Source: a virus
Direction: 5' to 3' (one strand)
Length of the DNA stretch: 62,911 bases
Virus record (IMG/VR): IMGVR_UViG_3300045988_079349
Shown: in pieces, positions 14,233 to 41,400 of the stretch
Layout: every line of letters begins with the position of its first letter
How positions within the stretch are numbered: position 1 is the stretch's first letter
Notes under the pieces: generated by a model
Told to the model about the DNA's origin: nothing
The model's database searches: none
What the model saw: only the letters and a program-made list of their open reading frames with translations
Program-made: the position numbers and the translations under genes

Positions 14233-14303
14233 AATACAGCCTTCTTTCTTTTGATTATTATAACCCTGCCTTGCCTTGGGTTTTGCAAGGCAGGGTTTAT
14301 AAA

Positions 14304-15317: not shown

Positions 15318-15755
15318 TTAATGGTATAATTGATATTTTCTGCCAATCTTATCAATCTCCTCAGCTTCCATTGGCCTAAATCCAATACAAGTGAGAGTCC
15401 CTTCAGGACTCTCTTTTTCCAGCTCTGTCCTGCAAGCATCGTAAATCAAAAAGTAATCTTTATACTCCTCCATACCGAGCTCTTTAGCTGCTTCGACCGC
15501 CCGCAATAAATCATCTTTATTCTTCGCGCGGCAAACAACTTTAGTCTCTGCCCCCGTTATCCAATCATGGAATAAGTCTGTATCGAGACTTATATCCATA
15601 TGATACATAATGCCATCTCTTTCCCGAACCACTTCTTTGCTTCCCCAAAGAATCTTTTCCAAAAGAAAAGCAATAGAAGCATGGGAAACTTGCGCAGCTA
15701 GCTTACCCGGAGACATATTTAAATCTTTTCTAGCTATAATTAACTGTTTATACAT
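15318..15755 (-). CDS. pth2: peptidyl-tRNA hydrolase, PTH2 family
   Basis: LIIARKDLNMSPGKLAAQVSHASIAFL matches the PTH2 signature (vVRtDLkMgkGKiaAQcsHA). Confidence 0.65.
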   Translation of the reverse strand: MYKQLIIARKDLNMSPGKLAAQVSHASIAFLLEKILWGSKEVVRERDGIMYHMDISLDTDLFHDWITGAETKVVCRAKNKDDLLRAVEAAKELGMEEYKDYFLIYDACRTELEKESPEGTLTCIGFRPMEAEEIDKIGRKYQLYH

Positions 15756-23054: not shown

Positions 23055-23411
23055 ATGAAAGCTAGTCGTGGAGAAATTAAAATTCATGAAATACTAGAGC
23101 AAAATGGCATAAACTTTAAAGAAGAGTATGAATTTCCTGGGTTAAAAGCGCCAAGCGGTAGACCACTTCGTTTTGATTTTGCTGTTTTTGATGATGATGG
23201 AAATCTTGATTTTTTAATTGAATATCAAGGAAAATAGCACTATTAGGCTGTAAGTAAATTTGGTGGAAATAGAGGGTTATATCAATAGAAATATAATGAT
23301 AATCAAAAGCGTAGATTTTGTGCCTTAAAAGGAATTACGCTTATAGAAGTTCCCTATACCGAGGAAAATATCATCTCTTATGATTACTTAATGAGCAAGG
23401 CTGGATACTGA
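23055..23411 (+). CDS. PD-(D/E)xK (Vsr/DUF559-like) endonuclease; 3 TAGs
   Basis: RPLRFDFAV...LDFLIEYQGK[TAG]HY gives the D...E.K catalytic core; start overlaps the terL stop. Confidence 0.5.
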
Positions 23412-23428: not shown

Positions 23429-25057
23429 TTGTTAAAGAGTAGACAAGAAAGTATTAGAGCCAAAGGTTTTGATTTATTAAATCAAGACGTTACTCGCTAT
23501 TAGCAGCAAGAGGAAGAAGATGACTTAGATTATAAGAGCATTGATTATGCTAAGATGCGGGTGGGGCTTCGCTCGGTAGATGATGCGCTTATTAATCTAG
23601 GTACATATAAGAAAATAAATAGAAATTATGGAGATAAGAAGTTCGTATTAAATGCTATTTATAAGCATGATTATAGAACTCTAAGAGAAATCTCTAATTA
23701 TTTCTATGAAAGTAGCGGTATATATTACAGATTATGTAAATACCTAGCTTTCTTATACAGATTTGATTGGTATATAACCCCATATATCGTAAGCGCGCAG
23801 AAAGATAAGGAGAAGTTATTAAAAGACTTTTCTAAAGTATTGCTTTATCTTGATAAATCTAATATAAAGAGAATGTTTGGTAATATATCATTAGATATCA
23901 TCAAAGAAGGGGCATATTATGGTATAATTGTTGACTTCGGAGATAGGTTTGCCATTTAGAAGCTACCTGCTTCATATTGTCGCAATAGATATTTCCAAGG
24001 CCCTAATCCTATTGTTGAATTAAATCTTGAGTTTTTTGATGTTTATTTCCCAAACCCACAGTATAAGGTTCAGATATTAAAGATTTTTCCTCAAGATATA
24101 TAGAAGGCTTATATTCTTTATAAGTAGGGGAAATTAAAGGGAGATTACCCGGGGAGTACAACTGTTTGGTATCCTCTAGATCCTAGTGTTTCAGTTAAGT
24201 TTAGCTTAAACGATAATGAATTTCCCTTTCTTGCGGGAGTTATTCCTTCTATTATTGATTTGGATTAGGCGCAAGAATTGGATCGTCAAAAAACAATGTA
24301 GCAACTATTGAAAATCATCATTTAGAAGTTGCCTCTTGATAAGAATGGTGATTTAATTTTTGACGTTGATGAAGCCAGAGATATTCATAATAACGCAGTT
24401 GCAATGCTTAAAAGAGCTATTGGAGTAGATGTATTGACAACTTTTGCGGATATTGAAAAAATTGATACAAAAGACAATAACTCCAATACAACAACCGACG
24501 ATTTGGAAAAGGTTGAACGTACAGTTTACAACAATTCAGGTGTAACTCATAATTTGTTTAATGCCGATGGAAATATTGCTGTAACAAATTCTATATTGAC
24601 TGATGAATCTAGCGTTAGAGATATACCTCTCATGTTTACAGAATTACTAAATAGAGTGGTAGAAAAATTCAATCGCAAGAATCATTATGAATTTAGAGCT
24701 GAGATGTTAGAAACAACATAGTTTAATTATAAAGAATTATCAAAGTTGTATAAAGAACACGCTCAGTTAGGATATTCTAAGATGTTGCCACAAATCGCTT
24801 TAGGGCATTCTCAATCAAGCATTTTAGCTACATTAACGTTTGAGAATGAAGTATTGAACTTGGCGGAGATTATGATTCCTCCTATGAGTTCTAATACCAG
24901 AAGCGGAAAAGATTTGGGTAATAATAATTAGTCATCTAATACTAATTCTTAGAATAAATAGACAAGTTCAACTAACAATAATGGAGCCGGAAGGCCAAAG
25001 AAGGAAGATGGCGAAAAGTCTGATAAGACAATAGCTAATCAAGAAAGTTCGTCATAA
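23429..25057 (+). CDS. portal protein (putative, ~542 aa); about 13 TAGs
   Basis: GGGAGGTGA RBS then TTG; gene order terL-nuclease-this-scaffold-capsid; in frame with track fragments 23555..23959, 24329..24721 and 24746..24931. Confidence 0.5.
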
Positions 25058-25071
25058 AGGAGGGATTGAAC

Positions 25072-26325
25072 TTGCATATTAGTGTTCCTATTTTAAACAC
25101 AATGGAATATATTTAGAACACTTAGATTTCTCCTCTAGTTAGCAAAGGCGTTTGTAAAGTTTGTTATGTCGGTCAACAGCCAAACCGCAATCATACAGTG
25201 ATTACTAAGGAAGTAGCTGTAGAGATGGGGCGTAAATTGCCGGGAAGTCCTATTGTTGGCTATTTTAATCAAGAGACAAAGGATTTTGAAGGTCACAATA
25301 GAGCGATTGATATTAAAGACGGCAAGTTTGCTATTGTTGATGTAACAAGACCTTATGGATTTGTTCCAGATAACGCTAATGTATGGTTTTAGAAGTTCAA
25401 TGATGAAGGTGTAGAAAGAGAATATCTAGTTACTGATGTATATATTTGGACTGGTGTTTATCCAGAATCTAAGAGAATTTTAGAAAATGGAAACAACCAT
25501 TCTATGGAATTAAATGAAAAAAATCAGTCAGGATTTTGGACAAAAGATGAAAAAACAAATGAAAGAATCTTTATCTACAATGAAGCATTGATTGAGAAAT
25601 TATGTGTTCTCGGAGAAAATGTTGAGCCTTGTTTCGAGGGAGCTCAATTTAGTTCTCAATTTTCTTTAGAGGGTAATCAAGAGTTTTAGAAACTTAAAAC
25701 TATGGTATACTCTATGATGGATCAATTAAAAGAAACTTTTAATAAAGGAGGCTCTCAAGAACCTATGGATAATGAGAATAAAGCACTTACCGAATTCGAG
25801 AAAAATAATCCTAATCCAGAGGATAAAAACAAGGAGAAAGAAAATTCTTCTGGAACTCCTGCCCCTGAGAAAGAGGGAAAAGAGGATAAGGATAAGAAAG
25901 GCAAGTATAATCTCGAAGATGTAACTGAATATACAGAGTTGCTTGCTAAATTTAATGAATTAGAGAGTAAATATTCTGCTCTTGAGCAAGAGAAGAATAC
26001 TCTAGATACCGAAGTTGCTGAATTGAAAGAGTTTAAGCTCAAAGCTGAACGTCAAAATAAGCAACAAATGATTGATAGTTTCTATATGCTTAGCGATGAT
26101 GATAAGAAAGACGTCGTGGAGCATATTGACACTTATTCTTTAGATGATATTGAAGCTAAGTTATCTATTCTTTGTGTTAGAAATAAGGTAAACTTTAACC
26201 TTGAGGATAAACATGAAGAGGATGATAAGACCCCAAAAGGACTTTTCAATTTGGAGCATCCAGAGACAGATAATGTTCCTGATTGGGTAAAAGCAATTCG
26301 TGAGACTGCTAAGAGCAGTATTTAA
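25072..26325 (+). CDS. head scaffolding protein (possible protease-scaffold fusion), ~417 aa
   Basis: C-terminal coiled coil ELLAKFNELESKYSALEQEKNTLDTEVAELKEFKLKAERQNKQQ; position before the capsid gene; 5 TAGs in the N-terminal half. Confidence 0.5.
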
Positions 26326-26338
26326 GGAGGATTAAAGA

Positions 26339-27028
26339 ATGGCTAAGAGTTCTAAAAGATTAGGTAATGCTACTTTTGTCCAATATGGATATGGTCAAGT
26401 AGAACCAAACCATCTTTCCGCTCCAAGAAATGGTCAGGTATATGCTCAGCTTCCTGCTGCTAGCACAATCACCCTTCTTGAGAATGGTCAATTCGTAAAG
26501 TATGACTATGCTAAGGGTGTATGTGATTTTAGCACAGAGGCTACTTCTGGTGCTTGGATGATGGTATTCAATGAGGTAAAAATTTATAGAGATCGTGAGA
26601 CTGATGCCGATTTTGCTATGATTAAAGATAACTATAACGCTCGTGTTTATAGCCCAATCGGACAGACCGTTTCTACACTCGCTACCATTAATGACTATAC
26701 TGGTGAAGCTGTACGTGAAGGTAGTAACGTAGCATATAAAAAGAATATGGAAACATTTACTTATCCAGCTTTGATGCCAGAAGGAACTAAAATGGTTCCA
26801 CGTGTAATTAAGATTAGTATTGGTGATATTTGGACAACTAATACTATTAAGGCTGATGCCGGTTCACTTGCTGTTGGAGATCGTTTAAAGATTGGTACTG
26901 ATGGTTATTTAACCGAGGATACTGAATCTTCTGCTAAGGGTGGAGATTTAGATCCTATCTTTACAGTAGTAAAAGTATACACCATGCCCGATCTTCAACC
27001 CGGTGTAAAAGTACAGCGTGTAGGTTAA
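26339..27028 (+). CDS. TAG-free structural protein (229 aa), possibly head decoration/auxiliary capsid protein
   Basis: ORF track; lies between the scaffold and capsid genes. Confidence 0.45.
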   Translation: MAKSSKRLGNATFVQYGYGQVEPNHLSAPRNGQVYAQLPAASTITLLENGQFVKYDYAKGVCDFSTEATSGAWMMVFNEVKIYRDRETDADFAMIKDNYNARVYSPIGQTVSTLATINDYTGEAVREGSNVAYKKNMETFTYPALMPEGTKMVPRVIKISIGDIWTTNTIKADAGSLAVGDRLKIGTDGYLTEDTESSAKGGDLDPIFTVVKVYTMPDLQPGVKVQRVG

Positions 27029-27047
27029 TTGGAAGGAGTGAAGAAGA

Positions 27048-28100
27048 ATGTTAGATAAAGCTAATTTACTTAGTTTAATGAAGACTGTCGCCAATGCAAA
27101 TCCTTCTGGTACCTATAGCTATCAAGGAGAATCCTTTAGCTACGACGCTTTGAACACCACTTTGCGCAATGAGTTAAATGAGCTTGTTGGCACAGATGAA
27201 CTTTATAGAGAAAATAAACATACTCTATTCTCTTTAATTGAGCAAACTATGGATGAAGTTGTTCCTAATCGTTTACTCAATTCTTATGGCAATTTTGCCG
27301 AGATTAGAACTTTCGGACAGGGAGATAAACCTGTATTTACTCGTAGAACTGGACTTACCCGTGCTAAGCAATTCATCACTCGTGTGGGACTTGCTGGCGT
27401 ATACGAGACCTTTAAGCTCGGTTCTGAGAGCTTCGAAGTTGGTACAAGTGCTATCGGCGGAGCTGCTCGTATCGGATTCGAGGAGTTCCTCGACGGAAGA
27501 GTAAACTTCGCAGAACTTACTCAGATTGTAACTGAGGGTATGCAAGAGCTTATTTATAGAGAGATTGCTCAAGCTCTTATGGGTTCTATTAATCAGCTTC
27601 CCGCGGCAAACCGTTGTGCCGTTGCTGGTTTTGATGAAGCTACTATGGATTATCTTGTAAATACTGCTAGTGCTTATGGTCAGCCCACTATTTACTGTAC
27701 TCGTGAGTTTGCAGTAAAGATGATTCCAGACAACGAGGCTTGGATTTCTGATAACATGAGAGATCAGTATTGGGGAACTGGATACCTTGCTAACTACAAG
27801 GGAACTAGAGTGGTAATTCTACCTCAAACCCTTGAGGATGAGACTAACTCTAGAAAGATGATTGACCCTGGTTATGCTTGGGTTATCCCCGGTGGAGCAG
27901 ATACTCGTCCTGTTAAAGTTGCTTTTGAGGGTACTACTCACGTGCGCGAGCGCGATGATAACGACGACTGGTCTCGTGATATTCAGGTTTACCGCAAGGT
28001 CGGAGTTGGCGTAATGATGGCAAATAACATTTTCTCTTACGTTGATACTGAACTTCAAGGTGAGCTTGATAATACTAACCCAAATCCAAATAATGGTTAA
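27048..28100 (+). CDS. major capsid protein (putative HK97-fold), 350 aa, TAG-free
   Basis: ORF track; position after the scaffold gene; strong terminator immediately downstream. Confidence 0.6.
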   Translation: MLDKANLLSLMKTVANANPSGTYSYQGESFSYDALNTTLRNELNELVGTDELYRENKHTLFSLIEQTMDEVVPNRLLNSYGNFAEIRTFGQGDKPVFTRRTGLTRAKQFITRVGLAGVYETFKLGSESFEVGTSAIGGAARIGFEEFLDGRVNFAELTQIVTEGMQELIYREIAQALMGSINQLPAANRCAVAGFDEATMDYLVNTASAYGQPTIYCTREFAVKMIPDNEAWISDNMRDQYWGTGYLANYKGTRVVILPQTLEDETNSRKMIDPGYAWVIPGGADTRPVKVAFEGTTHVRERDDNDDWSRDIQVYRKVGVGVMMANNIFSYVDTELQGELDNTNPNPNNG

Positions 28101-28102
28101 TT

Positions 28103-28140
28103 AAAAGGGGATAGGGAAATATCCCTATCCCCTTTATTTA
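28103..28140 (+). terminator. intrinsic terminator after the capsid gene
   Basis: AGGGGATAGGGAaatATCCCTATCCCCT followed by TTATTTA. Confidence 0.6.
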
Positions 28141-28161
28141 TTGAGAAAAAGGAGATATAAT

Positions 28162-28698
28162 ATGAAAGATAAGTGTATTGTTTATAATAAAAGTGCGGGC
28201 CGCGCGGTATATAAACTGCCTGAGCTTGGTGTACGTCGTATGTTCTATCCAGGTGAGCATAAAGAGATTAGTGTATCTGAGCTTGAAAAGTTGGTTCAAA
28301 CACCCGGAGGCCGCAAGCTGATTTATAATTATCTATTAATTGATGATAAAGAAATTATTGAATATCTTATTAATGGGAAAGTTGAACCAGAATATTGGTT
28401 AAAAGAGAAAGATATTGATTCGTGGATGCAGTCATGCTCTTTGGATGAATTCAAGGATGCTCTTGATTTTGCCCCTGATGGGACAAAAGATTTGATTAAG
28501 GCTCACGCGGTTTCTCTTCCTTTGAATGATATTTCAAAGCGAGATGCGATAGAAAAACAATTAGGTTTTAACGTTACTAAAGCGTTGGAATTAACCGCGG
28601 ACGAAGGAAAAAATTCTAAAAATGAGGTTAAGCCTGTTAGAAGAGCATCGGTTGCAAGTGATGATACTCCAAAGCGTAGAGTAACTATATCCGAGTAA
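28162..28698 (+). CDS. hypothetical protein (178 aa from the internal ATG), TAG-free
   Basis: Track ORF 28141..28698; AAAAAGGAGATATAAT RBS before MKDKCIVYNK. Confidence 0.5.
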   Translation: MKDKCIVYNKSAGRAVYKLPELGVRRMFYPGEHKEISVSELEKLVQTPGGRKLIYNYLLIDDKEIIEYLINGKVEPEYWLKEKDIDSWMQSCSLDEFKDALDFAPDGTKDLIKAHAVSLPLNDISKRDAIEKQLGFNVTKALELTADEGKNSKNEVKPVRRASVASDDTPKRRVTISE

Positions 28699-28717
28699 GA
28701 TAAGGGAGGTTATAGCC

Positions 28718-29254
28718 ATGGATAATAAGTATCCAATTTAGGGCGATCCTACCCTTTTTGAAGAAGTGTACGATAGATTTTTTGGTAAAATTACTGATGA
28801 TATGTATATGGAATGGACTAAGGAAGATACCGAGAAAGATTTGTATAATATTTTAATGGATGCGCTCCCAGGGTTTGAATTTCCTAGATTTCCATTATAT
28901 AGTTTTACCAATGTTGAGATAGCTAGTGAAGAGACTGGGACGGTTGCTGTTCCAGCCTTTTCCGCACATTTAACAACTGAAGAAATAAACATTCTTGCAT
29001 TATTGATGTATAATACTTGGTTATAGCGTTAGGTAGCATCAATAGAGTAGACGAGAATGAAATATTCTGGTACAGATTTTAAAATGACTTCTTAGGCTAA
29101 TCATTTAGCAAAATTGATAGAGCTAAAGAAGGAAGCTGAGCGTCAAAGCCACCATATGCAACGTCTTTATAAAAGAAGAAAACTAATTGATAATGAAGGG
29201 TCTTATAAGTCGAATTGGTCTACTCTTAGAGAAACGAGTGTTTTTGATGGATAA
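28718..29254 (+). CDS. hypothetical head-tail connector-region protein (~178 aa), 6 TAGs
   Basis: GGGAGG RBS; in frame with track 28766..29026. Confidence 0.45.
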
Positions 29255-29558
29255 ATATGAAATTGATTTTCCATTAGATACTAGAGAGCAAGACTTAAAG
29301 AGGCTAATCAATTAGTTATGGAAGTTAATACCAATGAAGGAAAACGATGAAGACTGGATAAATCATTTAAATACTATGATAGAGGAAATTAGTGGTTTGG
29401 TTAGGATATATAAAGATAAAGTCGAAGGTCTTATCTTATTATCTAAATTAGAAGGTTTAACTTCAAGTGTATGTAAAGAAGATTTTATGATTTATCGAAA
29501 AACAGTCTTTAGATGTATAGATTTATTGGCATAGGTAATAAAAGATGACGAATCTTGA
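29247..29558 (+). CDS. hypothetical protein (~103 aa), 2 TAGs
   Basis: Start overlaps the previous stop (ATGGATAA); in frame with track 29334..29534. Confidence 0.4.
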
Positions 29559-30537
29559 ATTAATGAGGAAAAGACTCGAGTGGCAAGGCGGCGTTCGGCA
29601 AGAAGATAGAATGATAAAGGATAAATGGCGCACTCTTCAAAAAGCGTTATAGTATTCTTATCAAAGTTGTTCAGTTTAGATGGTACAAAAATCATCTTAG
29701 GTATTAGATGCATCTTTAGATGCTATTGATAATGAAATGGGTATTTATCCTATATATAGAGCGCTTATTAATCCCGATAAAGTAAAACAAGATTATGATG
29801 ATAAGATAATTTCAATAGATCATATGGCAAAATATGAACCGGGAGATGTCTTTGAGTGGAAAAGAACTGGGACTTATTGGATTATCTATTTAGAAGAAAT
29901 AACCGAGGATGCTTACTTTAGAGGAGAAATAAGACGTTGTAGATATAAGATTAAATTTAAAGATTAGGATGGAAAATGGTGTGAAACATGGGCGGCAATT
30001 AGAGGGCCAGTTGAAACTTAGATAGAATCTATTCAGAAAAATCAAGAGAGATTAGATAAACCTAATTTAAGTTTAAATATCCTCATGCCAAGAAATGAGA
30101 AAACAATTCATGCTTTTGATAGATATAAAGAATTTCTATTTGCGGGACGGTGCTGGAAAGTCTAGGCTCCAGACGATATTAGCATGAGAAATGTTATTGA
30201 AGTCAATGCAGAAGAGGACTATATCAATAGAGATACAGACGATATTGAGAATAGTATGAAAGATGGATTAGTTTTTGAGCCTGTTGATCCTACTCCAGAA
30301 AGTGGAATATTAGGTGAAACTTTCATTAAGCCCTTAATAAAAGAGACTTATTCTGTTGAAGAACCTAATGGAACTTGGTCAATACTAGAAAAAGATTTCC
30401 CTGTAACTTTATGTCCGAATGGAAATAAAGCAGTAGATTTAGTATGGAATAAATCTACTCATGGTCAATTCACTCTAATATGGGAAAAAGAAAATATTAC
30501 GCTAGAAAAAGTTATTGTGGTAGAGTCTTTGTTCTAA
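29545..30537 (+). CDS. hypothetical structural protein (~330 aa), about 7 TAGs
   Basis: In frame with the track ORFs 29737..29967 and 30184..30537. Confidence 0.5.
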
Positions 30538-30549
30538 GGGGTGAAATTA

Positions 30550-31086
30550 ATGAAAAAGAATACCTATGAATATCCTAAATCTAGTTTATTGGGAATTTAG
30601 AAAGACGCTTCATTGATTATGGAGAGGATACTTTCTAATTAGAATGTTTTAAAGTTATTAGCTTATAATACTAGAGATTGGAAAAGTAAACCTGCGGTTA
30701 CCGGAGATATGATAAAGGAAATGATTGAAACATAGCAAATTTCTCCTGTGCCTAAAATTAAAGTAGATAGGCCAGAAAAATCATATTTGCGATTAATTTA
30801 TGGTACGATGGTTAGAAATTCTACTAATCCTGAATATAGAGATAATACCTTTGGAATAGATATTATATGTCATTATGATAATTGGGATTTAGGAGATTAT
30901 GATTTGCGTCCTTATAGGATAGCCGGAGAGATAGATTCAATGTTGGATAAAACTCATTTAACTGGGATAGGAGAACTTGAATTTGTATCCGCTGTTCCGT
31001 ATATTTATGATGAAGAGTTTGCCGGTTTGTCTCTTACCTATCTTGCAATTCGTGGTAATGAGGATAAGGTAAATCCACTTGTCTGA
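30550..31086 (+). CDS. hypothetical protein (~178 aa), 4 TAGs
   Basis: Ends with the track ORF 30748..31086. Confidence 0.45.
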
Positions 31087-31102
31087 TTATAGATTAGCTT
31101 TA

Positions 31103-31828
31103 ATGGCTGGGATTGATATTCCCATTCCTGAATTACAACTTATTATTCATGTTCCCACCATTAAAGAAATAGCTCTTATAGGCGAGACAAAATTTTTTAT
31201 GGCAGTTCAATATCTTTGTTTAGACAAAGAATCATTAATATAGGACGAAATTCTTTCATCATCCTTAACTAATTTTCAAGTATTGATGAAGGTGTTAGAA
31301 CAATCTTAGGATAAGGATAAGAAAGATGCAATTATCATGCTTCTTACGTTATTATTTCCTGACTATATACCACTATTTACGAGAAATTCTATTATTTTAA
31401 CAAAATAGAATGAAAAGCAACCTATTTTGATAGATGATAATAACTTTGATATTTTCCAAGATACATTAAAAGAGGTCTTATGTGTAAATAGCATATTTCA
31501 AGGTAATAATGTTATCTATAATCCTGCGAATGATAGAGCAAAAGAAATAGCAGAGAAGTTAATGCGGGGACGTCGTAAAGTAGCGGAAATAAAGAATAAG
31601 GGAAATAATGAAAGTGTTTTAACACGTTATGTATCTATCCTAACAGTTGGATCTTAGACAATGAGCTTGGAGGATTGCCTTAATCTCAATATGTTTTAGA
31701 TATTTGACTTGATGGAAAGATATAATGCATTTATTGAATGGGATGTTGATCTGCGGATTCGTCTTGCAGGCGGCAAACCGGATAAACCAGTTGAATCATG
31801 GATGCGAGATATACATCCTAAAAATTAA
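31103..31828 (+). CDS. hypothetical protein (~241 aa), about 8 TAGs
   Basis: In frame with track 31427..31657. Confidence 0.4.
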
Positions 31829-31842
31829 GGAGGAATTAGCTC

Positions 31843-33237
31843 ATGCGTTTTGGTATTCGTGAGATTTGCGATGTAGTGCTTCGTGCGAAGAGTTATCAAA
31901 CCCTTGGTAATCGTAAGTTCTACAAAAATGAACCAGTTTTATATTTCGACACTTTAAGAACCTCTACTCTTGAGGGTGCTGCAACAACAGTATATGCGCA
32001 GGGCGGACGTGGATATTCTAGATTGATTGCTTGGGAAGGTGAGCGTACTCTAACCTTTACAATGGAAGATGCTCTACTTTCTCCAGAAAGCTTCTCTATT
32101 CTTTCTGGTGCTGGCCTACTTGATGCAACAAAAGAAGCTCCTATCTATGTTCACCAGACTTCTCAGATTGAAGTTGAGACTGCCAATACTATTATTGTTC
32201 CAGACAAGGCTTGCTGGAATGGATTTACTGACCATGATAATGAAATGTATCACCGTTCTGCCGACATCTTTGTGATGGTGTTAGGCGATGATGGTCAAGT
32301 TAATGCCGAGCCTTGTATTCCTGTTTCTGTAAGTTACACAGAAGATGGCAAAACAACTTTAACTTGTTATTCTCATGCTGGCGTACTTCCTGCGGGAACC
32401 ATTGTTTTAGTTGACTACTATGTAAAGCGTACCGGTGGAGCACAGATGATTGAAATTACTGCTGATAAGTTTGGTGGTAACTATTATCTTGAGGCTTCAA
32501 CTCTATTCCGTCGTGAGAGCGATGGCGTAGATATGCCTGCTGAATTTATTATTCCTAACTGTAAAGTTCAGAGTAACTTCACATTCAGTATGGCAGCTAA
32601 CGGAGATCCTTCTACCTTTACCTTTACAATGGACGCTTTCCCTGATTACACCAAGTTCGACCAAACCCATAAGGTATTGGCTGCAATTCAAGTAATCACT
32701 GATGAAAGCGGTGAAACCGAGGAAACTCGTGAGCCATGCTCTGAGAATGTAGGTACTTATGAGAGCGAAGCTGCTGATGTGACTGTAAGTTTCGTATCTA
32801 ATAGTGCTACAGCCGCAGAGCTTGATGTTACTGGTAGTGTAACAGGAAAGGCTTATGACACTGAGACTTATGGCGATACTATAGCAGAAGCTGCTCAGAT
32901 CAGCCTGCAAATCCCAGTAGAGAGTGATAGTACCCAATATAATGTGGTAACTACAAACCCAGCTTATGAGAGATACTTCTCTACAGACCCAGGAATTGAA
33001 GGTAATACAAAGACTCAAACCGTTAGCGGCGAAGAGTTAGCTCAAGGATTGCTTGTAATTCTTACTAGCGAAGATCAGGCAACTCCTATTACCGCAAAGA
33101 TTAATAAGATTAATGGTGATTTTGAAAAGACTTATACCATTAATAACAAACTTAGCTTTGCTACATCTGCCGCAGCAAAAGCTAAGACTAGCACCCGCAA
33201 TAAGTTAGTCTCTGTCACCGAGGATGACGGAATTTAA
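31843..33237 (+). CDS. major tail (tube) protein with an Ig-like C-terminal extension (464 aa), TAG-free
   Basis: ORF track; AAGGAGG RBS; lies upstream of the chaperone and tape measure genes; strong terminator after it. Confidence 0.5.
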   Translation: MRFGIREICDVVLRAKSYQTLGNRKFYKNEPVLYFDTLRTSTLEGAATTVYAQGGRGYSRLIAWEGERTLTFTMEDALLSPESFSILSGAGLLDATKEAPIYVHQTSQIEVETANTIIVPDKACWNGFTDHDNEMYHRSADIFVMVLGDDGQVNAEPCIPVSVSYTEDGKTTLTCYSHAGVLPAGTIVLVDYYVKRTGGAQMIEITADKFGGNYYLEASTLFRRESDGVDMPAEFIIPNCKVQSNFTFSMAANGDPSTFTFTMDAFPDYTKFDQTHKVLAAIQVITDESGETEETREPCSENVGTYESEAADVTVSFVSNSATAAELDVTGSVTGKAYDTETYGDTIAEAAQISLQIPVESDSTQYNVVTTNPAYERYFSTDPGIEGNTKTQTVSGEELAQGLLVILTSEDQATPITAKINKINGDFEKTYTINNKLSFATSAAAKAKTSTRNKLVSVTEDDGI

Positions 33238-33239
33238 TC

Positions 33240-33276
33240 TAAAGGGAGGACTTAATGTCCTCCCTTTTTCTTTTTA
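33240..33276 (+). terminator. intrinsic terminator
   Basis: AAGGGAGGACttaaTGTCCTCCCTT followed by TTTCTTTTT. Confidence 0.6.
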
Positions 33277-33293
33277 TAAGGAGTAATTGGAGT

Positions 33294-34730
33294 TATGGAT
33301 ATTGATATTTATGATTATGTTTAGCGTTGGTCTATTAACTATATTGTATATCACAGTAGCCATTTGAGAGAATATGGCGACGTAGAATCAGCGAATACCT
33401 TATTCAGCGCATAGTATCAATAGGCAGTAAATAAAGCATAGACCGCGGGAATTGAGGCTTAGATCTCCTCAATTCAAGAATAGATGCAGCTAAAAGCGCC
33501 TTCCGCAGCCAGTGGATTAAAGATTCTAAGTGATCTAGAGATAGGAACCCTATTAGACTCTACTCTTGATTAGATTGCCGCCGGTATTAATGAGGGTATT
33601 GAATTAGCTGGTGGATAGGTAGATTTTGAAAACTATAATACTATATTGCAATAGGTTGGAAGCTTTAATAACTTGTTATCAACTGGTACACCGGAAATAT
33701 AGAGAGTGAATGATTTCTTTAGGTTACTTATATCAGCTTTAACGAAAGCGAATATGATAAATGTTAATGTTCTTGATGCTTTAACATAGATTGGAAGATA
33801 GCTAATAGGAACTAGCTTTTAGATAGATTAGGCATAGCAAAGTTATGTTATGGCTGTTGGCAAAGGAGATATAAATATCGCAAAAGATGTAATAGATTCT
33901 TTAAACAGGGCTGTTACTCGTTTAAGTGAATAGGGATCAGTAAACTCTCGTTCTTTTGCTAATACTATTGCTTATATATTTAGAAGGGTTATTGGAAATT
34001 AGATTAGTTAGGCGATAGTTGCAGAGGGTATATCAATAGGAGTTAATACCGCGGATAGTATATTAGATAAGGTAATCGCGCAATCTGGTGGAAAATTGCG
34101 ATGGGTTGATAAAGGATAGAATAATGTCTCTAAGTCTAAAGGTACTACAAATATATTTAATAATGATACCTTTAGTTTGCAAGTAACCAAGGGCAATCAG
34201 ACTTTTAATATAGAGATAGGGACAAATGTAAATGCAAGATGGCAAAATAAGAAAATGTCTTAGAATAAAATTTCTGCTTCTTCAAGTATGAATGTTGGAG
34301 AATATTTTTCTGGTTAGCCAGAGAAGTATCTTGCTTATAATATGATTGCTCATAGATATACTGGAGCTGATTTTGAAGAATCGTTTAATAATATACGGGC
34401 TTCTGTTGCAGCGTCCTTCTTTAATTAGTGGATTCAGTCTAGTGAGTTTAGTTCATAGAAGGGTCATTTAGGATAGTTTATTATAGTTAATGGTAGAGTA
34501 TTTTCAATCTAGCGAATTATTAATAATATCTGTGATGATATTGTTAGAAATAGTGCTCATGAAGTGGTTTCTATTGGTGGAGAAGGCGCTCTGGGTAATA
34601 AGTGGTATGGCAATTCTGGAGCAAACATATTAGATGCAATCACCCGTAGTAATATAGTCAATGGAGTTATAAATAAATTAACTATTGCAGCAACTTTAAA
34701 TAATAATATACTATCTAAATACGCATATTA
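33294..34730 (+). CDS. hypothetical Gln-rich protein (~478 aa) with about 40 in-frame TAG codons
   Basis: Single frame from ATG to TAA with TAG as the only internal stop; lies between the tube and chaperone genes. Confidence 0.45.
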
Positions 34731-34794
34731 AACTTGACAATAGTTAATTTTTCTAGTATAATAAAAATATAAATGAGATAAAGGAGATTTTACA

Positions 34795-35325
34795 ATGACT
34801 TTTAAAGATTTGGGGCTTGAGCCTAAAGTTAAATATACAGAAGTAAAGGTTGGAGCAGATAAGATTTTGTCTGTGGCTAATTATCTTCCTATTGCTGATA
34901 AAACAAATCTTATTATGTTTGTCACTGATTTATCAATAGATGAGGCAACTGGCTGTTTTAGTCCAGTTAGAGTGGAGACCTATTTTGCTATTGCTATATG
35001 CAGATGGTATGGCGGAATTACTTTTGAGCCAGAAGATGTGCATGAAAATATCGCAAAAACCTATGACACTCTTGAGACAAACAGTGTAATTGATGCAATT
35101 CGTGATATTATTCCGGTGGAGGAACTATCTTTTATTGAGGATTTAGTTAAGGATACTATAAGCGATATTTCAAGATATAATAGTTCTGCGGCCGGCATTA
35201 TTCAGATGATGAATAAAAATGCTTCTGGTCTTGATACATATATTACTGATATGCTAGAAAAGATTAAGAATGGTGAAAATCTTGAAACACTATCAGTAAT
35301 TAAAGATGTGGTTGGAAAAGATTAA
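34795..35325 (+). CDS. tail assembly chaperone candidate (176 aa), TAG-free
   Basis: ORF track; immediately precedes the tape measure gene; terminator-like hairpin at about 35375-35410. Confidence 0.4.
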   Translation: MTFKDLGLEPKVKYTEVKVGADKILSVANYLPIADKTNLIMFVTDLSIDEATGCFSPVRVETYFAIAICRWYGGITFEPEDVHENIAKTYDTLETNSVIDAIRDIIPVEELSFIEDLVKDTISDISRYNSSAAGIIQMMNKNASGLDTYITDMLEKIKNGENLETLSVIKDVVGKD

Positions 35326-35435
35326 TAAATCTAATAAAATTTACAAATTAGATAGAGAATTAAAAGGCTCTTGAGAAGATATAATTCTCAAGAGCCTTAT
35401 TTGTTTTATCGTAGAGATAAAGGAGGAAAAGGACT

Positions 35436-38400
35436 GTGGCTAATAAAAGATTAAACTATTAGATTGGGTTTACCGCTGATACTACTGAACTTTATAGAGC
35501 AGTAAATGATGCCGTTAAAGCATTAAATAGTATTGGTTCAGGCCAAAAATCTTTTTTAGGTTTAGATAGTGCTACTCAATAGGCAAGAGAACTTTAGACA
35601 ATTTTAACCTCTGCTTTTAATGAAAATACTGGGAAATTAGATCTAACTACATTTGCTAAAAGTTTAGAGAGAAGTGGAAAAAGTTTAAATGACTATGGAC
35701 GTAGCTTAACAAGTATTGGTCCAGCAGGATAGGAAGCTTTTTCATAGGTAGTTAAAGCTATATCTTCTGCTGAACTTCCATTAGTAAGAACGAGTAAATT
35801 ATTCGATCAGCTATGGATAACAATGAAAAATACTGTTCGTTGGCAAGTTACCTCAACTGCTTTAAATAGTTTTGTTGGTACTCTTGAAACCGCCTATGGT
35901 TATGCAAAAGATTTAAATGAATCTTTAACAAACATTCGTATAGTTACTGAAAATTCTGCGGAAGATATGGCTCTATTCGCGGAATAGGCAAATAAAGCTG
36001 CTAAAGCATTAAGTACAACTACTGTAGACTATACTGATGCAGCTCTAATTTATTATCAATAGGGTCTTACTGAGTAGGAAGTTTTAGATAGAACTGAAAC
36101 TACTATAAAAATGGCGAACGCCGCAGGTGTTAGTGCCTAGACTGCATCTGATCAGTTAACTGCGGTATGGAATAACTTTTATGATGGAAGTAAAAGTCTT
36201 GAGTATTATGCAGATGTCATGGTTCGCTTAGGTGCGGATACTGCATCAAGCTCTGATGAAATTTCAGAAGGTATCTAGCAGTTCGCCGCAGTTGCAGAGA
36301 CAGTAGGTTTGAGTTATGAGTATGCAGCATCTGCATTAGCAACTGTTACTGCTACAACTCGTGAATCTGCGAATACTGTAGGTACTGCATTTAGAACATT
36401 ATTTGCACGTATTCAGGGCTTAAATCTTGGCGAAACACTTGATGATGGAACTACTTTAAATAAATACTCTTAGGCTCTTGATAAAGTTGGAATTAACATC
36501 TTTGATGTTAATGGAGAAATTAAAACCATGGATACTCTATTAGATGAAATGGGAGAGAAATGGGAAACTTTATCTAATGATCAATAGATTGCATTAGCAT
36601 AGACTGTAGCTGGAGTACGTCAATATACCCGCCTTATTGCTCTCATGGATAACTGGGATTTCTTCTAGGAAAATCTAGAGAGTGCGTATGGCGCTAGTGG
36701 TTCTTTACAGGAGCAGGCTGATATTTATGCTGAATCTTGGGAAGCAGCTAGAGATAGAGTAAGAGCATCTGCGGAAGATATTTATGATAGTATTATAAAT
36801 CCTGAATTATTTATAAGTGCTGATAACATAGCTTCTCCATTCTTATCTGGAATTGCAGATATTGTTGATGGAATGGGTGGATTAAATGGTATTTTATTAA
36901 CCACTGGTACATTAATCACTTCAGTTTATGGGGATAAGATTGCCAATTCAATGAGAAATATGGCAACAAATATTAGTATTATTACTGGAGTAGAAGCTGA
37001 ACGAGCTAGAGTATTATAGTCTAATGCTGTTGATATATTGAAAAATTTAGAATCTACTTATGCCGCAGGCGACGCAGAAGCATATAGATTAAATATTATG
37101 TATCGTTAGGCAGAAGTGTAGGGGGCTATTAATTCAAAATATGATTCGATGACTATTGAGCAGAGGAAATAGTTATAGTCACAATAGCAGTAGTTAGATA
37201 TACTTAGAGATGAAAATTTAATTATTGCTGACACTATAGGAAAACTATAGCAATCAGCTACGGAAAAATTTGGTTCAATTTTCATTAATATCCCTCAAGG
37301 CTCAGAAGGTTGGCAGGATCAGTTAAAAGCAGAAATAGATTAGTGGAACAAAAAAGCTAAAAAGACATATCGGATCAATTTAGAAATTAATCCTGACACA
37401 ACTGTTGAAACTGTTTTTAGTAATATTTCTAAATAGCTTGATTCATTAGCAAAAAAACATGCTAGTTTACGACTTATTTCTAATTAGTTTTAGAATTTAG
37501 ACGCTACAAGTGAGAAGTATGAATAGAATTTAAAAGAATTAATTGCTACCTACTCTAATTTAGGTACTTCAAATAAGACGGTCTAGGAGATGGAGTCTTA
37601 TTTAAAACGTCTTGGAACCCAAGCAGATAATACAGAAAGTCAAATTAAAGAATTGGGTAATGTCCTTTCTTAGCTTGGAGTAAATAAAAATAATATAAAT
37701 TCTTATATTGATACTTTGATGAATTTGCATTTATAGCTGCAAAGAGGAGAAATTACTTAGGAAGCATATAACAATGCTGTTTAGCGAGTTGTAACTAATA
37801 TTAATAACCTTAATTCTTCTTCTAAAGATTGGGCTAGTGGAATAGTATAGGCTGGAAATGCTATATCATCTCTTTTAATGGCGGTTAATGGCATCAATAG
37901 TATTGGTAGGGTTTTTTCCGATGAGGATATGACCTCTGGAGAAAGATTTATTACAATTCTAACTGGATTAAGTATGATTATTCCATCTGTTACTTCCGCT
38001 ATGAAATTCCTTAATCAAGAAAAAGCGATTTCTGTAGCGGTTACAGGAACAGAAGTTACTGTAACTGGAAGTAGTATAGCTGCAAATTTAGCTAGAACCG
38101 CTGCAAATAAAATTTTAGCAGTTTCTGAGGGAGAAGTGGCTACTGCGACTTAGGTAAGTAATGCAGCTATGGCAGCAAGATTGATTATGTTAGCTCCATA
38201 TGTAGCACTTATTGCAGCATTAGTAGGTGGAATCTACTTAGCAGTAAAAGCATACAATGCTGACGCGGACGCTGCGAAGCGAGCTGCCGAAGCTGCGGAA
38301 GAGACGCAACAGGCTGTAGAAGATGCTACTTCAGCGTATGAGGAATTAAAATAGACTATTTCGGATTATAGCGAAGCCCTTGATAGCATTAATGAGCTAG

Positions 38401-41400
38401 AAAAAGGAACAGAAGAATTTGCAGAATAGATAGAAGACGCTAACAAAAAAGCTAAAGAATTAATTGAAACATATAAATTGTTTGGGCAATATAGTTATGG
38501 TTCAAACGGATAGATAGTATTTGATGAAGGAGTACTAGAGAATCTTTAGGAGCAATAGGCTAGTAATCTTAGTTCATTAGAAAGCGCCAATTATTAGACA
38601 TAGATAACTGCGTCTAATGCAAATTTGAAAGCTTTGGCTACTAGTACGATTAGAGAAACTGGACTAACCTATGGTTACTCTTATCAAGATCGTTCTGGAA
38701 ACGAGTAGGAGATGCAGCGTCTCATTTCTCATGATATGTTAGATGAATTAGCTAATAATTATTATGAGTTAATGAGCGAGGCTTCTGACGGATTTGTAAC
38801 TCTTGAGAGTGGAATTTAGCTTTCTGTCGACGCAGTTGCAGATGCGAAGGATGCATTAGAGGAATATGCCGATGCCGCAAAATCGGCGGCAGAAGAAACA
38901 GAATACTTTGCTAGCTAGATTTTAACTAATTATGTTGGACAAAATTATGAAGGTACAATAGATAGCAATGAAGATTTAATTCGATAGGCTGCAAGTAATC
39001 AAGTAGGTAATACTCAACTTTCTTCTGGAAAAACTGTAGATGAAGCATTGGCAGAAATTAATGCTGCAAATGCCAATAATGCTACTATTAAAGATTTGCT
39101 AAGAGAACTATATAATACGGATTATATGTTCTTAACCGATGAAAGATTGGGTAAGGAATACGCGGAAAAAGTTCTTGGATGGGATACTGCCTCTATTGGT
39201 TATTCTGGAGGATGGGGAAAAGGAACTCTTTCAAATGCCGCTACTGGCGAATCTGTAGAAATGACAGACTAGGCTATGCGCATTGCTTTATAGAATCTAC
39301 TTATGTAGGAGAAAATTTTAAAGCAGTATGCAGACGAAATAGAAAATAATGCTGAAGGAGCTATTGATATAGATTCTTACATTTAGGAGTTAAATGAAGA
39401 TATTAATAATATCAATACTCAATTTGGAGAGGAATTTGGTACAGCATATGCTCAAGCCTTAGCAAATGAAGGAGATATAGATTTTGTTAATTTATTAGAA
39501 CAATCTTTTTCTCCTGAATAGGTAGAAGAGCTAAAAACTAAGGTTAGTTCTGGATTGTTAGATATTCCTTAGGAGTTTCTTGATGCTTTAACTTCTTCAA
39601 TAGAAGATTATGACGCCAGTAATTATTGGGCTAATTAGCTTGAGACAAGTAAGAAAAATGCGGCAGAAATTGGTAGTATCCTTTCTTCTTACCAAAATGA
39701 AGAGGAATTAGATGAGGATTAGCTAGCCTTCTTAGATGAATTGATGGCTAAATATGAAGATTTATCTAATTTACAAGCCACAAATTAGCATGACTATCTT
39801 GAAAGATTAAGAGAGATACAAGAACAAGAAGAAAAAACGTATCTTACTGGATTAGAGGATTCTGCTAATTAGCAAAGAGAGGATATTTAGCAATTAGAAT
39901 CAGAAATAGCAAGATTAGAAGATGCTGGATATGCTCCACTAGATTTAATAGAGGAATTACAATAGAAATTATAGAAGCTTGCAGACACAGAGTATAAAAT
40001 TTAGATTGCTCTCGATACGGATTTAGCTTCTGATATTGATTAGGCATTCGGGTTAGCCAATGAAATAGAATAGCTTAAAGGATATTTGGAAGATGGCCTT
40101 GAAATAACATATGATAGAGCCTAGGAAATAATAGCGGCTGGCTATGGCGCTATGCTTACTAATGCAAGAGAAACGGCAGATAGTACTATTGAGTTAAATA
40201 GAGAAGTTGTTAATAATTTTATTGATGGTAAATAGTAGGAAATAGAAGCTGATAGATTAGCAAGAATAAAGTAGTTAGAAACTGAGAGAGAAGCATTAGT
40301 CGCTAAGCGAGATTCTCTTTATGCTGGATTAGAAGCTTTAAAATCTGGGCTTAAAGCAGAGGATGCGGCCTCTAAAGCTGCGGCACTTGCACAAGCAGCT
40401 ATTTATAAAGCTGATGCCGATTCAAAAGAAATTACAGCTGAAAAAAAGGCTGACGCAGAAGATTTAGCCAATGAAGAAATTGCTAATGATGCCGCCGCTT
40501 TAGTCGATGCTTTGGGAATAATGCATGAAACTGATGCAGAAAATTCTCAATAGGCGTATGATGATATTGAAACTGCGGCGAATCAAAGTGGAGCATCATA
40601 GGTTAGCGTTTGGAATTAGGTTTAGTTAGCAGCAGTTAAAGCATCGTAGGCAATAAAAGCTGCTTATAGCGGGCAGGAAAGTACTTATGATCCCGTGCTA
40701 TTTGAAGGACAGGATAATGTCTCCGTGGGGGCGACCAGTTCACAAACTGCTGATAATACATATGTATTTTCTAAAGCAGATGTTTAGACATTAACTGATG
40801 AAATCCTTAATGCCGCTTAGAATAATATCGAAGTATTAAATAGCGCTACAGAGCAAGCTATTGATGAAATATAGTTAGAATTGAATTCTGTTAATGCTTA
40901 GATCGGTTCTGTAGATGCTGGAATTGCGGCACTAAAAAGCGCTAATTTATCTTTAGATAAAACATAGGCTAACTTAGGTAGTGGTTCTGGCGGAGATAAC
41001 GAAGGTACAAAATATGATGCCGAGGATGAAAAAACTCTTGAAGATATAGAAGATAGATACCATGAAATAACTCGTGAGATTGAGAATTAGAATGATTTAT
41101 TGGATGATATTGGTAATAATATAGATAGAGCATATGGAGCGAAGAAATTATAGGCTTATTAGAAAGAGCTTCAAGAGTTAGAAAAACAGCAAGCTAATTA
41201 TAATAAGATGCTTGATGAGGCTGAGACTTATCTTGAGAAAGATAGATCAGAACTTCAAGGATTATTTAACAATTCTCTTATTTTTGATGAAAATGGAGAA
41301 ATTGAAGGTTATCAAGACGTTCTTCAATCTATTATTGATGATTACAATAATAACTTCTTAACCGATTATAATGCTTTCTTATTGATGTTTAGTAGTCTTA

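What the first reader, a model, noticed from the sequence alone, without database searches (positions are those of the whole stretch)
26339..33237. The most abundant virion proteins (capsid, tail tube, the 229-aa protein) are completely TAG-free while their neighbours are TAG-dense
The 350-aa capsid gene and the 464-aa tube gene have zero TAG. The surrounding portal, scaffold, connector and tape measure genes each have 5 to 100. Selective avoidance in high-copy proteins suggests suppression is inefficient or costly and that TAG density is tuned to the expression level required.
Basis: seen in the sequence. Interest (0 to 1): 0.55.

Follow-up and report, generated by a model that had tools for sequence, protein, structure and literature searches.

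The report
Abundant virion genes avoid recoded TAG
In this gut phage, which reads the stop codon TAG as glutamine, the three proteins made in the largest amounts (capsid, capsid decoration, tail tube) never use TAG, apparently because TAG is a slightly poorer codon that selection removes only from the most heavily translated genes.

Summary
Under code 15, TAG makes up 303 of 588 Gln codons in the late module. The 229-aa, 350-aa and 464-aa genes have 0 of 36 (P about 3e-13).

Homology and fold evidence identify them as a capsid decoration protein, the major capsid protein and the tail tube. These are the three components present in hundreds of copies per virion.

The same three genes are TAG-free in about 12 related lineages (capsid identity down to 51%), while their neighbours gain TAG repeatedly. 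Only 3 of 106 Gln-codon columns ever hold TAG, each in a single genome, against 278 of 654 elsewhere.

They also share a strong bias typical of highly expressed genes (CGT, CTT, GCT, C-ending Phe/Asn/Tyr/Ile; almost no ATA, AGG, GGG, NCG). An unsupervised analysis that ignores Gln codons separates them. Conserved terminator hairpins follow the capsid and tube genes.

TAG avoidance is therefore one facet of ordinary translational selection. This is a clear, well-replicated example of a phenomenon noted anecdotally before. Interest is moderate.

The parts
26339..27028 (+). 229-aa TAG-free gene; probable capsid decoration (cement) protein
27048..28100 (+). 350-aa TAG-free gene; major capsid protein
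   Evidence: It has 0 TAG in 13 Gln codons. tblastn matches genes annotated as major capsid protein in Bacillus phages Thrax1, Thrax3 and Kirov. Two distant family members hit Pfam Phage_capsid_4. PC1 is +3.56. In close relatives, codon 240 (L006) and codon 313 (L007, L008) show CAG to TAG as tip variants.
28104..28135 (+). Terminator-like hairpin immediately after the capsid gene
   Evidence: 14-bp stem followed by a T-rich tail (ATTTATT); the top-listed terminator-like site in 18-37 kb. MFE is -24.9 kcal/mol. A hairpin of -19.6 to -24.7 kcal/mol sits at the same place in the L003, L009, L012, L017, L025 and L031 lineages; the stems displayed for L009, L012, L017 and L031 are not all the same (L012 is close to the window's).
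28162..28698 (+). 178-aa gene, TAG-free in the window only; function unknown
   Evidence: It has 0 TAG in 3 Gln codons. Homologues in L016, L023 and L050 carry 3, 1 and 1 TAG, so it is not a consistent member of the TAG-free class. PC1 is +0.86.
31843..33237 (+). 464-aa TAG-free gene; tail tube protein with an extra C-terminal domain
33241..33267 (+). Terminator-like hairpin immediately after the tube gene
   Evidence: 11-bp stem followed by TTCTTTTT. MFE is -21.3 kcal/mol. Equivalent hairpins are present in L003, L017, L025 and L031.
34734..35398 (+). Small TAG-free gene (34795-35325, 176 aa, acidic) with its own consensus promoter and hairpin, in the tail-chaperone position before the tape measure
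   Evidence: It has 0 TAG but only 1 Gln codon. Homologues are TAG-free in all lineages, 0/1 to 0/10. A perfect TTGACA-17-TATAAT lies at 34734-34762 and a 14-bp hairpin at 35364-35398.
23555..26325 (+). Comparators upstream: portal (23555-25057, 10 TAG of 22 Gln codons) and scaffold-like gene (25102-26325, 4 of 17)
   Evidence: The scaffold-like gene is intermediate in both TAG fraction (0.24) and codon bias (PC1 +1.46). Across 11 genomes, 9 of its 76 Gln columns hold TAG.
28718..31828 (+). Comparators between capsid and tube: five head-tail connector/completion genes with 5, 2, 6, 3 and 5 TAG
   Evidence: TAG is 40-75% of their Gln codons.
33295..44234 (+). Comparators downstream: 478-aa gene of unknown function (33295-34731, 25 TAG of 35 Gln codons) and the tape measure gene (35823-44234, 98 TAG; the ORF from 35421 has 103)
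   Evidence: The tape measure protein is confirmed by PHROG matches at E 4e-59.

Best explanation
The window is the late (virion) module of a TAG-to-Gln recoded siphovirus from the human gut. It is related to phAss-1 and to other large phages whose contigs are binned with Clostridia.

In most late genes TAG behaves as a near-neutral synonymous Gln codon. It accumulates from CAG by C-to-T mutation pressure until it is the commonest Gln codon.

Three genes are translated far more than any other late gene: the capsid decoration protein, the major capsid protein and the tail tube protein. Their products are needed in hundreds of copies per virion. In these genes weak translational selection removes every suboptimal codon, and TAG is one of them.

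The inferred reason is that UAG is read by a phage suppressor tRNA. That tRNA must compete with host release factor 1, and it is probably less abundant or less well charged than the normal Gln tRNAs. Each TAG would then cost a little yield or speed. This matters only when multiplied by a very high translation load.

Shown: the avoidance, its conservation, its coupling to general codon bias, and the identity of the proteins. Inferred: the molecular cause of the cost, and the actual expression levels.
For: 1. Statistics: 0 of 36 Gln codons are TAG against 0.515 in the 27 late genes pooled and about 0.55 in the remaining late genes.
2. Replication: the three orthologues are TAG-free in about 12 lineages with capsid identity from 100% down to 51%, while neighbours carry TAG at 13-54% of Gln codons.
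3. Across 12 genomes only 3 of 106 Gln columns in the three genes ever hold TAG, all singletons, against 278 of 654 in other late genes (Fisher 4e-19).
4. Mutational opportunity exists. 29 Gln columns in the three genes mix CAA and CAG. Two independent CAG-to-TAG tip variants occur in the capsid gene of 96-97% identical genomes. The ratio of TAG columns to mixed columns is 3:29 against 278:119 (P 1e-11).
5. General codon bias in the three genes against other late genes: CGT 0.58 vs 0.15, ATA 0.02 vs 0.31, GGG 0 vs 0.09, NCG near 0. TTC, AAC, TAC and ATC are each roughly doubled.
6. A PCA of codon usage that excludes Gln codons puts exactly these three genes at the extreme of PC1, followed by the scaffold-like gene. 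The same CGT-rich, ATA-poor bias is seen in every lineage.
7. The effect is specific to TAG, not a first-position composition shift. In the three genes TTG:CTG is 6:1 but TAG:CAG is 0:17 (P 5e-5).
9. Strong hairpins, conserved in position, directly follow the capsid and tube genes.
10. A related genus encodes tRNA-Sup(CUA) together with tRNA-Gln(CUG) and tRNA-Gln(UUG).
Against: - No expression data exist; copy numbers are inferred from protein identity.
- The decoration-protein call rests on a low-confidence model.
- The host and its tRNA pool are unknown, so 'optimal codon' is inferred from the internal contrast and from general rules for C-ending codons.
- No suppressor tRNA or release-factor gene lies in the window, and none could be recovered for this lineage.
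- The base after in-frame TAG gives no specific sign of release-factor competition.
- In crAss-like phages the capsid gene can carry recoded stops (PMC7886860), so the rule is not universal.
Confidence: 0.7

Rival explanations
1. Timing or independence from the code switch. The three genes are kept in standard code so that they can be translated before the suppressor tRNA accumulates, or if suppression fails. This would give capsid and tube subunits a head start.
For: TAG-free genes are translatable by the unmodified host apparatus. Published models hold that recoding delays late genes (bioRxiv 10.1101/2021.08.26.457843). The TAG-free gene at 34795-35325 has a perfect host-type promoter of its own.
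Against: - The three genes are interleaved, on the same strand and with gaps of 13-20 nt, with portal, scaffold-like and connector genes that need TAG read-through and are required for the same assembly steps.
- No host-type promoter precedes them, and promoter-like sites are not above chance.
- The hypothesis does not predict the strong bias at non-Gln codons.
- TAG variants in the capsid gene are tolerated in relatives.
Confidence: 0.1
2. Accuracy rather than efficiency. UAG may be decoded heterogeneously, for example Glu instead of Gln if the suppressor is charged through the indirect pathway, or by near-cognate tRNAs. Mixed residues would be most harmful in proteins that build large symmetric lattices.
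For: The three TAG-free proteins are exactly the lattice-forming ones. This reading is compatible with all the statistics given for the best explanation.
Against: It does not by itself predict the general bias towards fast codons, although accuracy selection can produce similar bias. The portal, connectors and tape measure are also oligomeric yet TAG-rich. No data on misincorporation are available.
Confidence: 0.1
3. TAG as a built-in attenuator. TAG number would be positively selected in low-copy genes to set virion stoichiometry within polycistronic late transcripts.
For: TAG is the majority Gln codon in low-copy genes, and the scaffold-like gene is intermediate. The densest TAG gene (33295-34731) lies right after the tube terminator.
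Against: There is no gradient among TAG-bearing genes (rho -0.31, P 0.2). TAG:CAG in those genes equals the mutation-driven TTG:CTG ratio. About 100 TAG in the tape measure would abolish its synthesis unless read-through is nearly complete, which leaves little room for attenuation. TAG positions differ between lineages, consistent with drift.
Confidence: 0.08
4. Mosaic origin. The three genes were recently acquired from a standard-code phage and have not yet accumulated TAG.
For: Their G+C is higher (0.39-0.42 against about 0.33) and their codon usage is distinct.
Against: Their identity to each relative ranks the same way as for the flanking genes. The TAG-free state and the bias are present in every lineage down to 51% capsid identity. 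Synonymous turnover at their Gln codons is high. The preferred codons are mostly T-ending, so this is not a simple G+C shift.
Confidence: 0.03

Closest known systems
TAG-to-Gln (code 15) recoded gut phages: phAss-1/'Phassvirus' group, crAss-like and Lak phages (PMC10607447; bioRxiv 10.1101/2021.08.26.457843; PMC9523058)
   Same: In-frame TAG occurs throughout the late structural genes. TAG aligns with Gln. TAG is not used as a stop. Related genomes carry suppressor tRNA(CUA). Capsid identity to phAss-1 is 51%.
   Different: Those papers stress enrichment of recoded codons in late and lysis genes as a timing lock. They tested only for gene families that prefer the recoded codon. Here the informative signal is the opposite one: depletion inside the late module.
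Translational selection on codon usage in highly expressed genes, including phage capsid genes (general principle; T7 capsid deoptimisation, PMC5592923)
   Same: The three genes show the classical signature: C-ending Phe/Tyr/Ile/Asn, CGT for Arg, and avoidance of ATA, AGG, CGA and GGG. They separate on the first axis of codon usage.
   Different: The disfavoured set here includes a reassigned stop codon. This gives a natural readout that UAG remains a second-rate sense codon in a recoded phage.
Anecdotal reports of capsid genes without alternative coding in recoded Crassvirales (bioRxiv 10.64898/2026.08.21.746148; one Zeta-group example in PMC7886860)
   Same: The major capsid gene lacks TAG although other structural genes have it. 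The 2026 preprint also suggests pressure for efficient translation.
   Different: Those are single-genome remarks in an unrelated podovirus-like order. Here the pattern also covers the decoration and tail tube genes, is replicated over many lineages, and is tied quantitatively to codon bias and to tip polymorphisms. Other crAss-like phages do have recoded stops in the capsid gene.
Lambda-type head and tail gene order (portal, scaffold, D decoration, E capsid ... V tube, G/T chaperone, H tape measure)
   Same: The order of portal, scaffold-like, decoration-like, capsid, connectors, tube, small acidic protein and tape measure is the same.
   Different: An extra 478-aa gene of unknown function lies between tube and chaperone position. 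No G/T frameshift arrangement is evident. The tape measure is very long (about 2,800-2,940 aa).

Membership tests
Code 15 (TAG = Gln) recoded phage | Conserved late genes are broken by TAG under the standard code and restored when TAG is sense | tested here: met
   ORFs of 100 codons or more total 0.50 of the window length under code 11 and 1.31 (six frames, with overlaps) when TAG is sense. Terminase, portal and tape measure become single ORFs.
Code 15 (TAG = Gln) recoded phage | TAG positions correspond to Gln in homologues | tested here: met
   297 of 624 aligned codons in relatives are CAA, CAG or TAG. The next most common are Lys, Glu and Asn. The capsid tip variants are CAG to TAG.
Code 15 (TAG = Gln) recoded phage | TAG not used as a terminator | tested here: met
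   All 27 late genes end in TAA or TGA.
Code 15 (TAG = Gln) recoded phage | Suppressor tRNA with anticodon CUA encoded by the phage | tested here: inconclusive
   There is no tRNA in the window or in the flanks of relatives. One is present in phAss-1 and phAss-1-like contigs. The rest of this genome was not recoverable.
Translationally selected (highly expressed) gene class | Distinct codon usage on the main axis of an unsupervised analysis | tested here: met
   PC1 (26% of variance, Gln codons excluded) is +3.5 to +4.0 for the three genes. All others are at +1.5 or below.
Translationally selected (highly expressed) gene class | Shift to C-ending codons for Phe, Tyr, Ile and Asn, and avoidance of rare Arg, Ile and Gly codons | tested here: met
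   TTC 0.48 vs 0.22, TAC 0.26 vs 0.13, ATC 0.21 vs 0.12, AAC 0.35 vs 0.16. ATA 0.02 vs 0.31. AGG, CGA, CGG and GGG are all 0.
Translationally selected (highly expressed) gene class | Preferred codons match the host tRNA pool; high measured expression | not testable with these tools
   The host is unknown. The only hints are MAG bins of Oscillospiraceae, Eubacterium and Bacillota. No expression data are available.
HK97-fold major capsid protein | Homology to established capsid proteins | tested here: met
   tblastn matches annotated major capsid proteins of Bacillus phages at E 1e-7 over 80% of the length. Two distant family members hit Pfam PF25209 Phage_capsid_4 at E 3e-6. There is no direct PDB sequence hit. 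The fold was not modelled.
Siphophage tail tube protein | Tail-tube/Hcp fold and position upstream of the tape measure gene | tested here: met
Capsid decoration/cement protein | Decoration-protein fold; gene adjacent to the capsid gene | tested here: inconclusive
Recoding as a late-gene/lysis timing lock (Borges et al. model) | Early genes in standard code, late and lysis genes recoded, code-change module | tested here: inconclusive
   The late module is recoded, and a sigma-factor-like gene carries 9 TAG. Several crude minus-strand ORFs also carry TAG. No lysis cassette or code-change module was identified in the window.

The most novel reading that the evidence does not exclude
The TAG-free trio (decoration, capsid, tube) may be a deliberately maintained 'standard-code core'. 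It would let the bulk building blocks of the virion be made independently of the phage's suppressor tRNA. TAG load in the remaining late genes would then act as a gate or attenuator that sets timing and stoichiometry. On this reading, per-gene recoded-codon density would be a designed layer of expression control in recoded phages, not just mutation-selection balance.
Probability: 0.12. Interest if true: 0.7.

Novelty: new member of a known kind. Interest (0 to 1): 0.4.

Why it matters
This is a clean natural experiment on how complete a stop-codon reassignment is. Even in a phage where TAG is the commonest Gln codon, and where about 100 TAGs are read through in one gene, selection still treats UAG as second-rate in the most heavily translated genes.

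That has three uses. It bounds the efficiency of natural amber suppression. It gives a simple sequence-only marker for the highest-expression genes in recoded phages: TAG-free genes with strong codon bias inside a recoded module. It also warns annotators that intact ORFs inside a fragmented region are expected, not evidence against recoding.

The same result tempers the view that recoded-codon density mainly encodes regulation.

Tried and rejected
- Direct sequence searches of the three proteins, and of a 48-member capsid profile, against PDB sequences found nothing. The local Pfam copy gave no hit for any of them. Their precomputed families PF27173 and PF27364 are newer than that copy.
- I tried to find the suppressor tRNA of this lineage. 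There is no tRNA in the window, in the flanks of relatives, or in a locus extending about 7.9 kb beyond the left end of the window. A degenerate Sup-tRNA pattern recovered 11 contigs, none of them this lineage; the two checked carry a phAss-1-like tRNA array. An exact 40-mer from the right end of the window found no contig, and one from near the left end found only a short 13.7-kb contig.
- The base after in-frame TAG is depleted in T relative to CAA/CAG (P 3e-4). GAG and TTG show the same depletion, so this is not evidence for release-factor competition.
- Short capsid fragments in the protein library might have meant capsid genes split by TAG. The one examined is split by a frameshift in a short assembly.
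- Host-type promoter-like sites are not more frequent than in shuffled sequence (74 against 80 expected), so they say nothing about separate early transcription of the three genes.
- Recent horizontal acquisition was considered and rejected on congruent divergence and conservation of the pattern.
- A graded relation between TAG fraction and codon bias among TAG-bearing genes was tested and not found.


Full report
WHAT THE WINDOW IS

The 62.9-kb window has 36.7% G+C and no tRNA gene. Under the standard code the + strand between about 18.2 and 57.5 kb is broken into short ORFs. With TAG read as sense it becomes a tight array of long genes, including a 2,938-codon ORF.

PHROG matches identify a portal protein (23555-25057) and a gene with weak terminase large subunit matches (21307-23052). 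They also identify a scaffold-like protein (25102-26325), virion structural proteins and a tape measure protein at E 4e-59.

The 350-aa protein is 51% identical to a protein of phage phAss-1 (OQ749652). NCBI files phAss-1 under 'Caudoviricetes code 15 clade'. The protein is more distantly related to proteins of Enterococcus, Mammaliicoccus, Staphylococcus and Bacillus phages (a Staphylococcus one is named SPbeta-like), three of which are annotated as major capsid protein.

The phAss-1 paper (PMC10607447) describes TAG-to-Gln recoding in 41 ORFs and three suppressor tRNA(CUA) genes. It says terminase and tape measure carry TAG, and does not list the major capsid protein among the TAG-carrying proteins or comment on it.

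TAG = Gln holds here for three reasons:
- Window TAG codons align with CAA, CAG or TAG in 297 of 624 cases in divergent relatives. Lys, Glu and Asn come next.
- No late gene stops with TAG.
- The TAG variants seen in the capsid gene of close relatives sit at CAG codons.

THE OBSERVATION

I called 27 late genes from ATG plus Shine-Dalgarno sites. TAG supplies 303 of their 588 Gln codons (0.515).

- 26339-27028: 0 of 8
- 27048-28100: 0 of 13
- 31843-33237: 0 of 15

Binomial P values against the other genes are 2.7e-3, 6e-5 and 1.2e-5. Jointly the probability is about 3e-13.

The neighbours carry 2 to 103 TAG, which is slightly wider than the '5 to 100' in the finding. Two further small genes are TAG-free in the window (28162-28698 and 34795-35325). 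They have only 3 and 1 Gln codons.

WHAT THE THREE PROTEINS ARE

The 350-aa protein is the major capsid protein. The evidence is homology to annotated capsid proteins, Pfam Phage_capsid_4 hits in two distant members of its family, and its position after the portal and scaffold-like genes.

From general knowledge of tailed-phage architecture, these are the three components present in hundreds of copies per virion. A tape measure of 2,800 residues or more also implies a very long tail. Portal and connectors are present at 12 copies, and tape measure and tail-tip proteins at 3-6. These copy numbers are inference, not measurement.

REPLICATION IN RELATIVES

A scan of IMG/VR with the capsid protein gave 32 loci with 100% to 55% identity. 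A scan of genome contigs gave three more, binned with Oscillospiraceae, Eubacterium and Bacillota MAGs.

In every lineage the capsid, decoration and tube orthologues are TAG-free, while the surrounding genes carry TAG at 13-54% of their Gln codons. Per-lineage Fisher P ranges from 4e-11 to 0.08.

The exceptions are informative:
- L006 has CAG to TAG at capsid codon 240.
- L007 and L008 have CAG to TAG at capsid codon 313. These three genomes are 96-97% identical in the capsid protein.
- L023 has one TAG in the decoration homologue.

Across 12 genomes, only 3 of 106 alignment columns that hold any Gln codon in the three genes ever hold TAG, each in one genome. In the other late genes the figure is 278 of 654, many of them lineage-specific (Fisher 4e-19). 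The three genes are not short of synonymous change: 29 columns mix CAA and CAG. TAG columns to mixed columns is 3:29 against 278:119 (P 1e-11).

TAG therefore arises in these genes, is tolerated, and does not persist.

Identity to each relative ranks the same way for these genes as for their neighbours. Recent acquisition from a standard-code phage is therefore unlikely.

LINK TO GENERAL CODON BIAS

The three genes differ from the other late genes at almost every degenerate amino acid. Fractions are given as three genes vs other late genes:
- CGT 0.58 vs 0.15 of Arg; AGG, CGA and CGG are absent
- ATA 0.02 vs 0.31 of Ile
- GGG 0 vs 0.09
- GCG, CCG, ACG and TCG near zero
- CTT 0.48 vs 0.21
- AAG 0.63 vs 0.30
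- TTC, AAC, TAC and ATC each about doubled

The last four are the classical markers of translational selection in bacteria. This is established knowledge; the host itself is unknown.

A principal-component analysis of relative codon usage that leaves out the Gln codons puts exactly these three genes at the extreme of the first axis (+3.5 to +4.0). The scaffold-like gene follows at +1.46, and it also has the lowest non-zero TAG fraction, 4 of 17. The same CGT-rich, ATA-poor contrast is present in every lineage.

The avoidance is specific to TAG and is not a first-position composition effect. In the three genes TTG:CTG is 6:1 while TAG:CAG is 0:17 (P 5e-5).

In the other late genes TAG:CAG (about 6:1) parallels TTG:CTG (about 7:1). 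CAG is depleted relative to AAG and GAG. This is what C-to-T pressure would do to a neutral synonymous codon, and the late module has a strong G>C skew on the coding strand.

OTHER SIGNS OF HIGH EXPRESSION

The terminator-like hairpins with the longest, most G+C-rich stems in 18-37 kb lie directly after three stops:
- the capsid stop (28104-28135)
- the tube stop (33241-33267)
- the stop of the 34795-35325 gene

A hairpin is found after the capsid gene in five of the nine relatives tabulated (-19.6 to -24.7 kcal/mol); L009, L017 and L031 carry stems unlike the window's. One is found after the tube gene in four of the six with a tube homologue. Having the most abundant protein as the last gene before a stable 3' hairpin is a familiar phage arrangement. 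This is inference.

MECHANISM AND LIMITS

The best reading is mutation-selection balance. TAG is near-neutral and mutationally favoured in ordinary late genes. It is purged, with all other suboptimal codons, from the three most heavily translated genes.

The cost per TAG must be small. The tape measure gene has 98-103 TAG, and only 5% of ribosomes would finish it at 97% read-through per codon, or 37% at 99%. At 99%, seven TAGs in the capsid gene would still cost about 7% of the most abundant product.

The molecular origin of the cost is inferred, not shown. Candidates are competition with release factor 1, low abundance or poor charging of the suppressor tRNA, and misincorporation. The base following TAG gave no specific signal.

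There is no gradient among TAG-bearing genes (rho -0.31, P 0.2).

The timing rival holds that the three genes are translatable before the code switch. It fits poorly for three reasons. The genes are packed between TAG-bearing genes needed for the same assembly steps. No host-type promoter precedes them. The rival also does not predict the bias at other codons.

COMPARISON WITH THE LITERATURE

Late-gene recoding is well described. The main survey tested only for gene families that prefer the recoded codon, and it reported lysis genes and a crAss 'tail tube' family. Capsid genes of crAss-like phages can carry recoded stops.

A 2026 preprint on one amber-reassigned Crassvirales phage remarks that its capsid gene shows no alternative coding and suggests selection for efficient translation. 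Yutin et al. show one similar example.

The idea is therefore not new. What this analysis adds is the extension to the decoration and tube genes, replication over many lineages, tip polymorphisms that show the selection is ongoing but weak, and the quantitative tie to general codon bias.

VERDICT

It is a new member of a known kind. Interest is 0.4.

Noticed in passing
window 34734-35398: A perfect host-type promoter consensus (TTGACA, 17 nt, TATAAT) precedes the small TAG-free gene 34795-35325, and a 14-bp hairpin follows it. This looks like a self-contained transcription unit inside the late module, just before the tape measure gene. It might be expressed by host RNA polymerase independently of the late programme.
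   Followed up: partly
window 33295-34731: This 478-aa gene has the highest TAG density in the window (25 of 35 Gln codons, 7.3% Gln). It has no PHROG or Pfam hit, shows only 23-31% identity in relatives, and is absent from several lineages. It is wedged between the tube terminator and the promoter above.
   Followed up: partly
window 19068-20126: A sigma-factor-like gene (phrog_5767, E 1e-39) at the head of the late module carries 9 TAG. If it drives late transcription, its own synthesis would depend on suppression, which would make a possible regulatory cascade.
   Followed up: no
window 18295-19008 and 23055-23411: GIY-YIG-type and HNH-type homing endonuclease genes sit inside the late module, flanking the terminase region. 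Both contain in-frame TAG (4 and 3).
   Followed up: no
window about 4000-16000: A stretch with clearly higher G+C (0.41-0.46, against about 0.33 in the late module) holds small, mostly minus-strand ORFs. Some are CAG-rich and TAG-free (for example 5500-5901 and 6790-7614). Gene calls there are crude and the strand assignment is uncertain.
   Followed up: no
window 35421-35822: The tape measure ORF opens 134 codons (5 TAG) before the first ATG. The PHROG match starts at profile position 586 at residue 1, so the true start may be upstream or non-ATG. No G/T-type frameshift arrangement with the preceding gene is evident.
   Followed up: no
L035 (phAss-1 96-114 kb), L041, L042: The phAss-1-type genomes carry a near-complete tRNA array. 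It holds tRNA-Gln(CUG), tRNA-Gln(UUG) and tRNA-Sup(CUA) side by side, that is, three separate tRNAs for the three Gln codons.
   Followed up: partly
L034 893-1914: A capsid homologue in a short Logan assembly is split by a frameshift at residue 212, probably an assembly error. Such fragments inflate the count of short 'capsid' proteins in the protein libraries.
   Followed up: yes
window 26000-28000 and 32000-34000: The two TAG-free gene blocks show up as local G+C bumps (0.40, 0.39) and as dips in the otherwise strong positive GC skew of the late module (0.11-0.14 against 0.17-0.30; about 0.10 at its 3' edge, 56-58 kb). This fits selection holding C-containing codons against C-to-T pressure.
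   Followed up: partly
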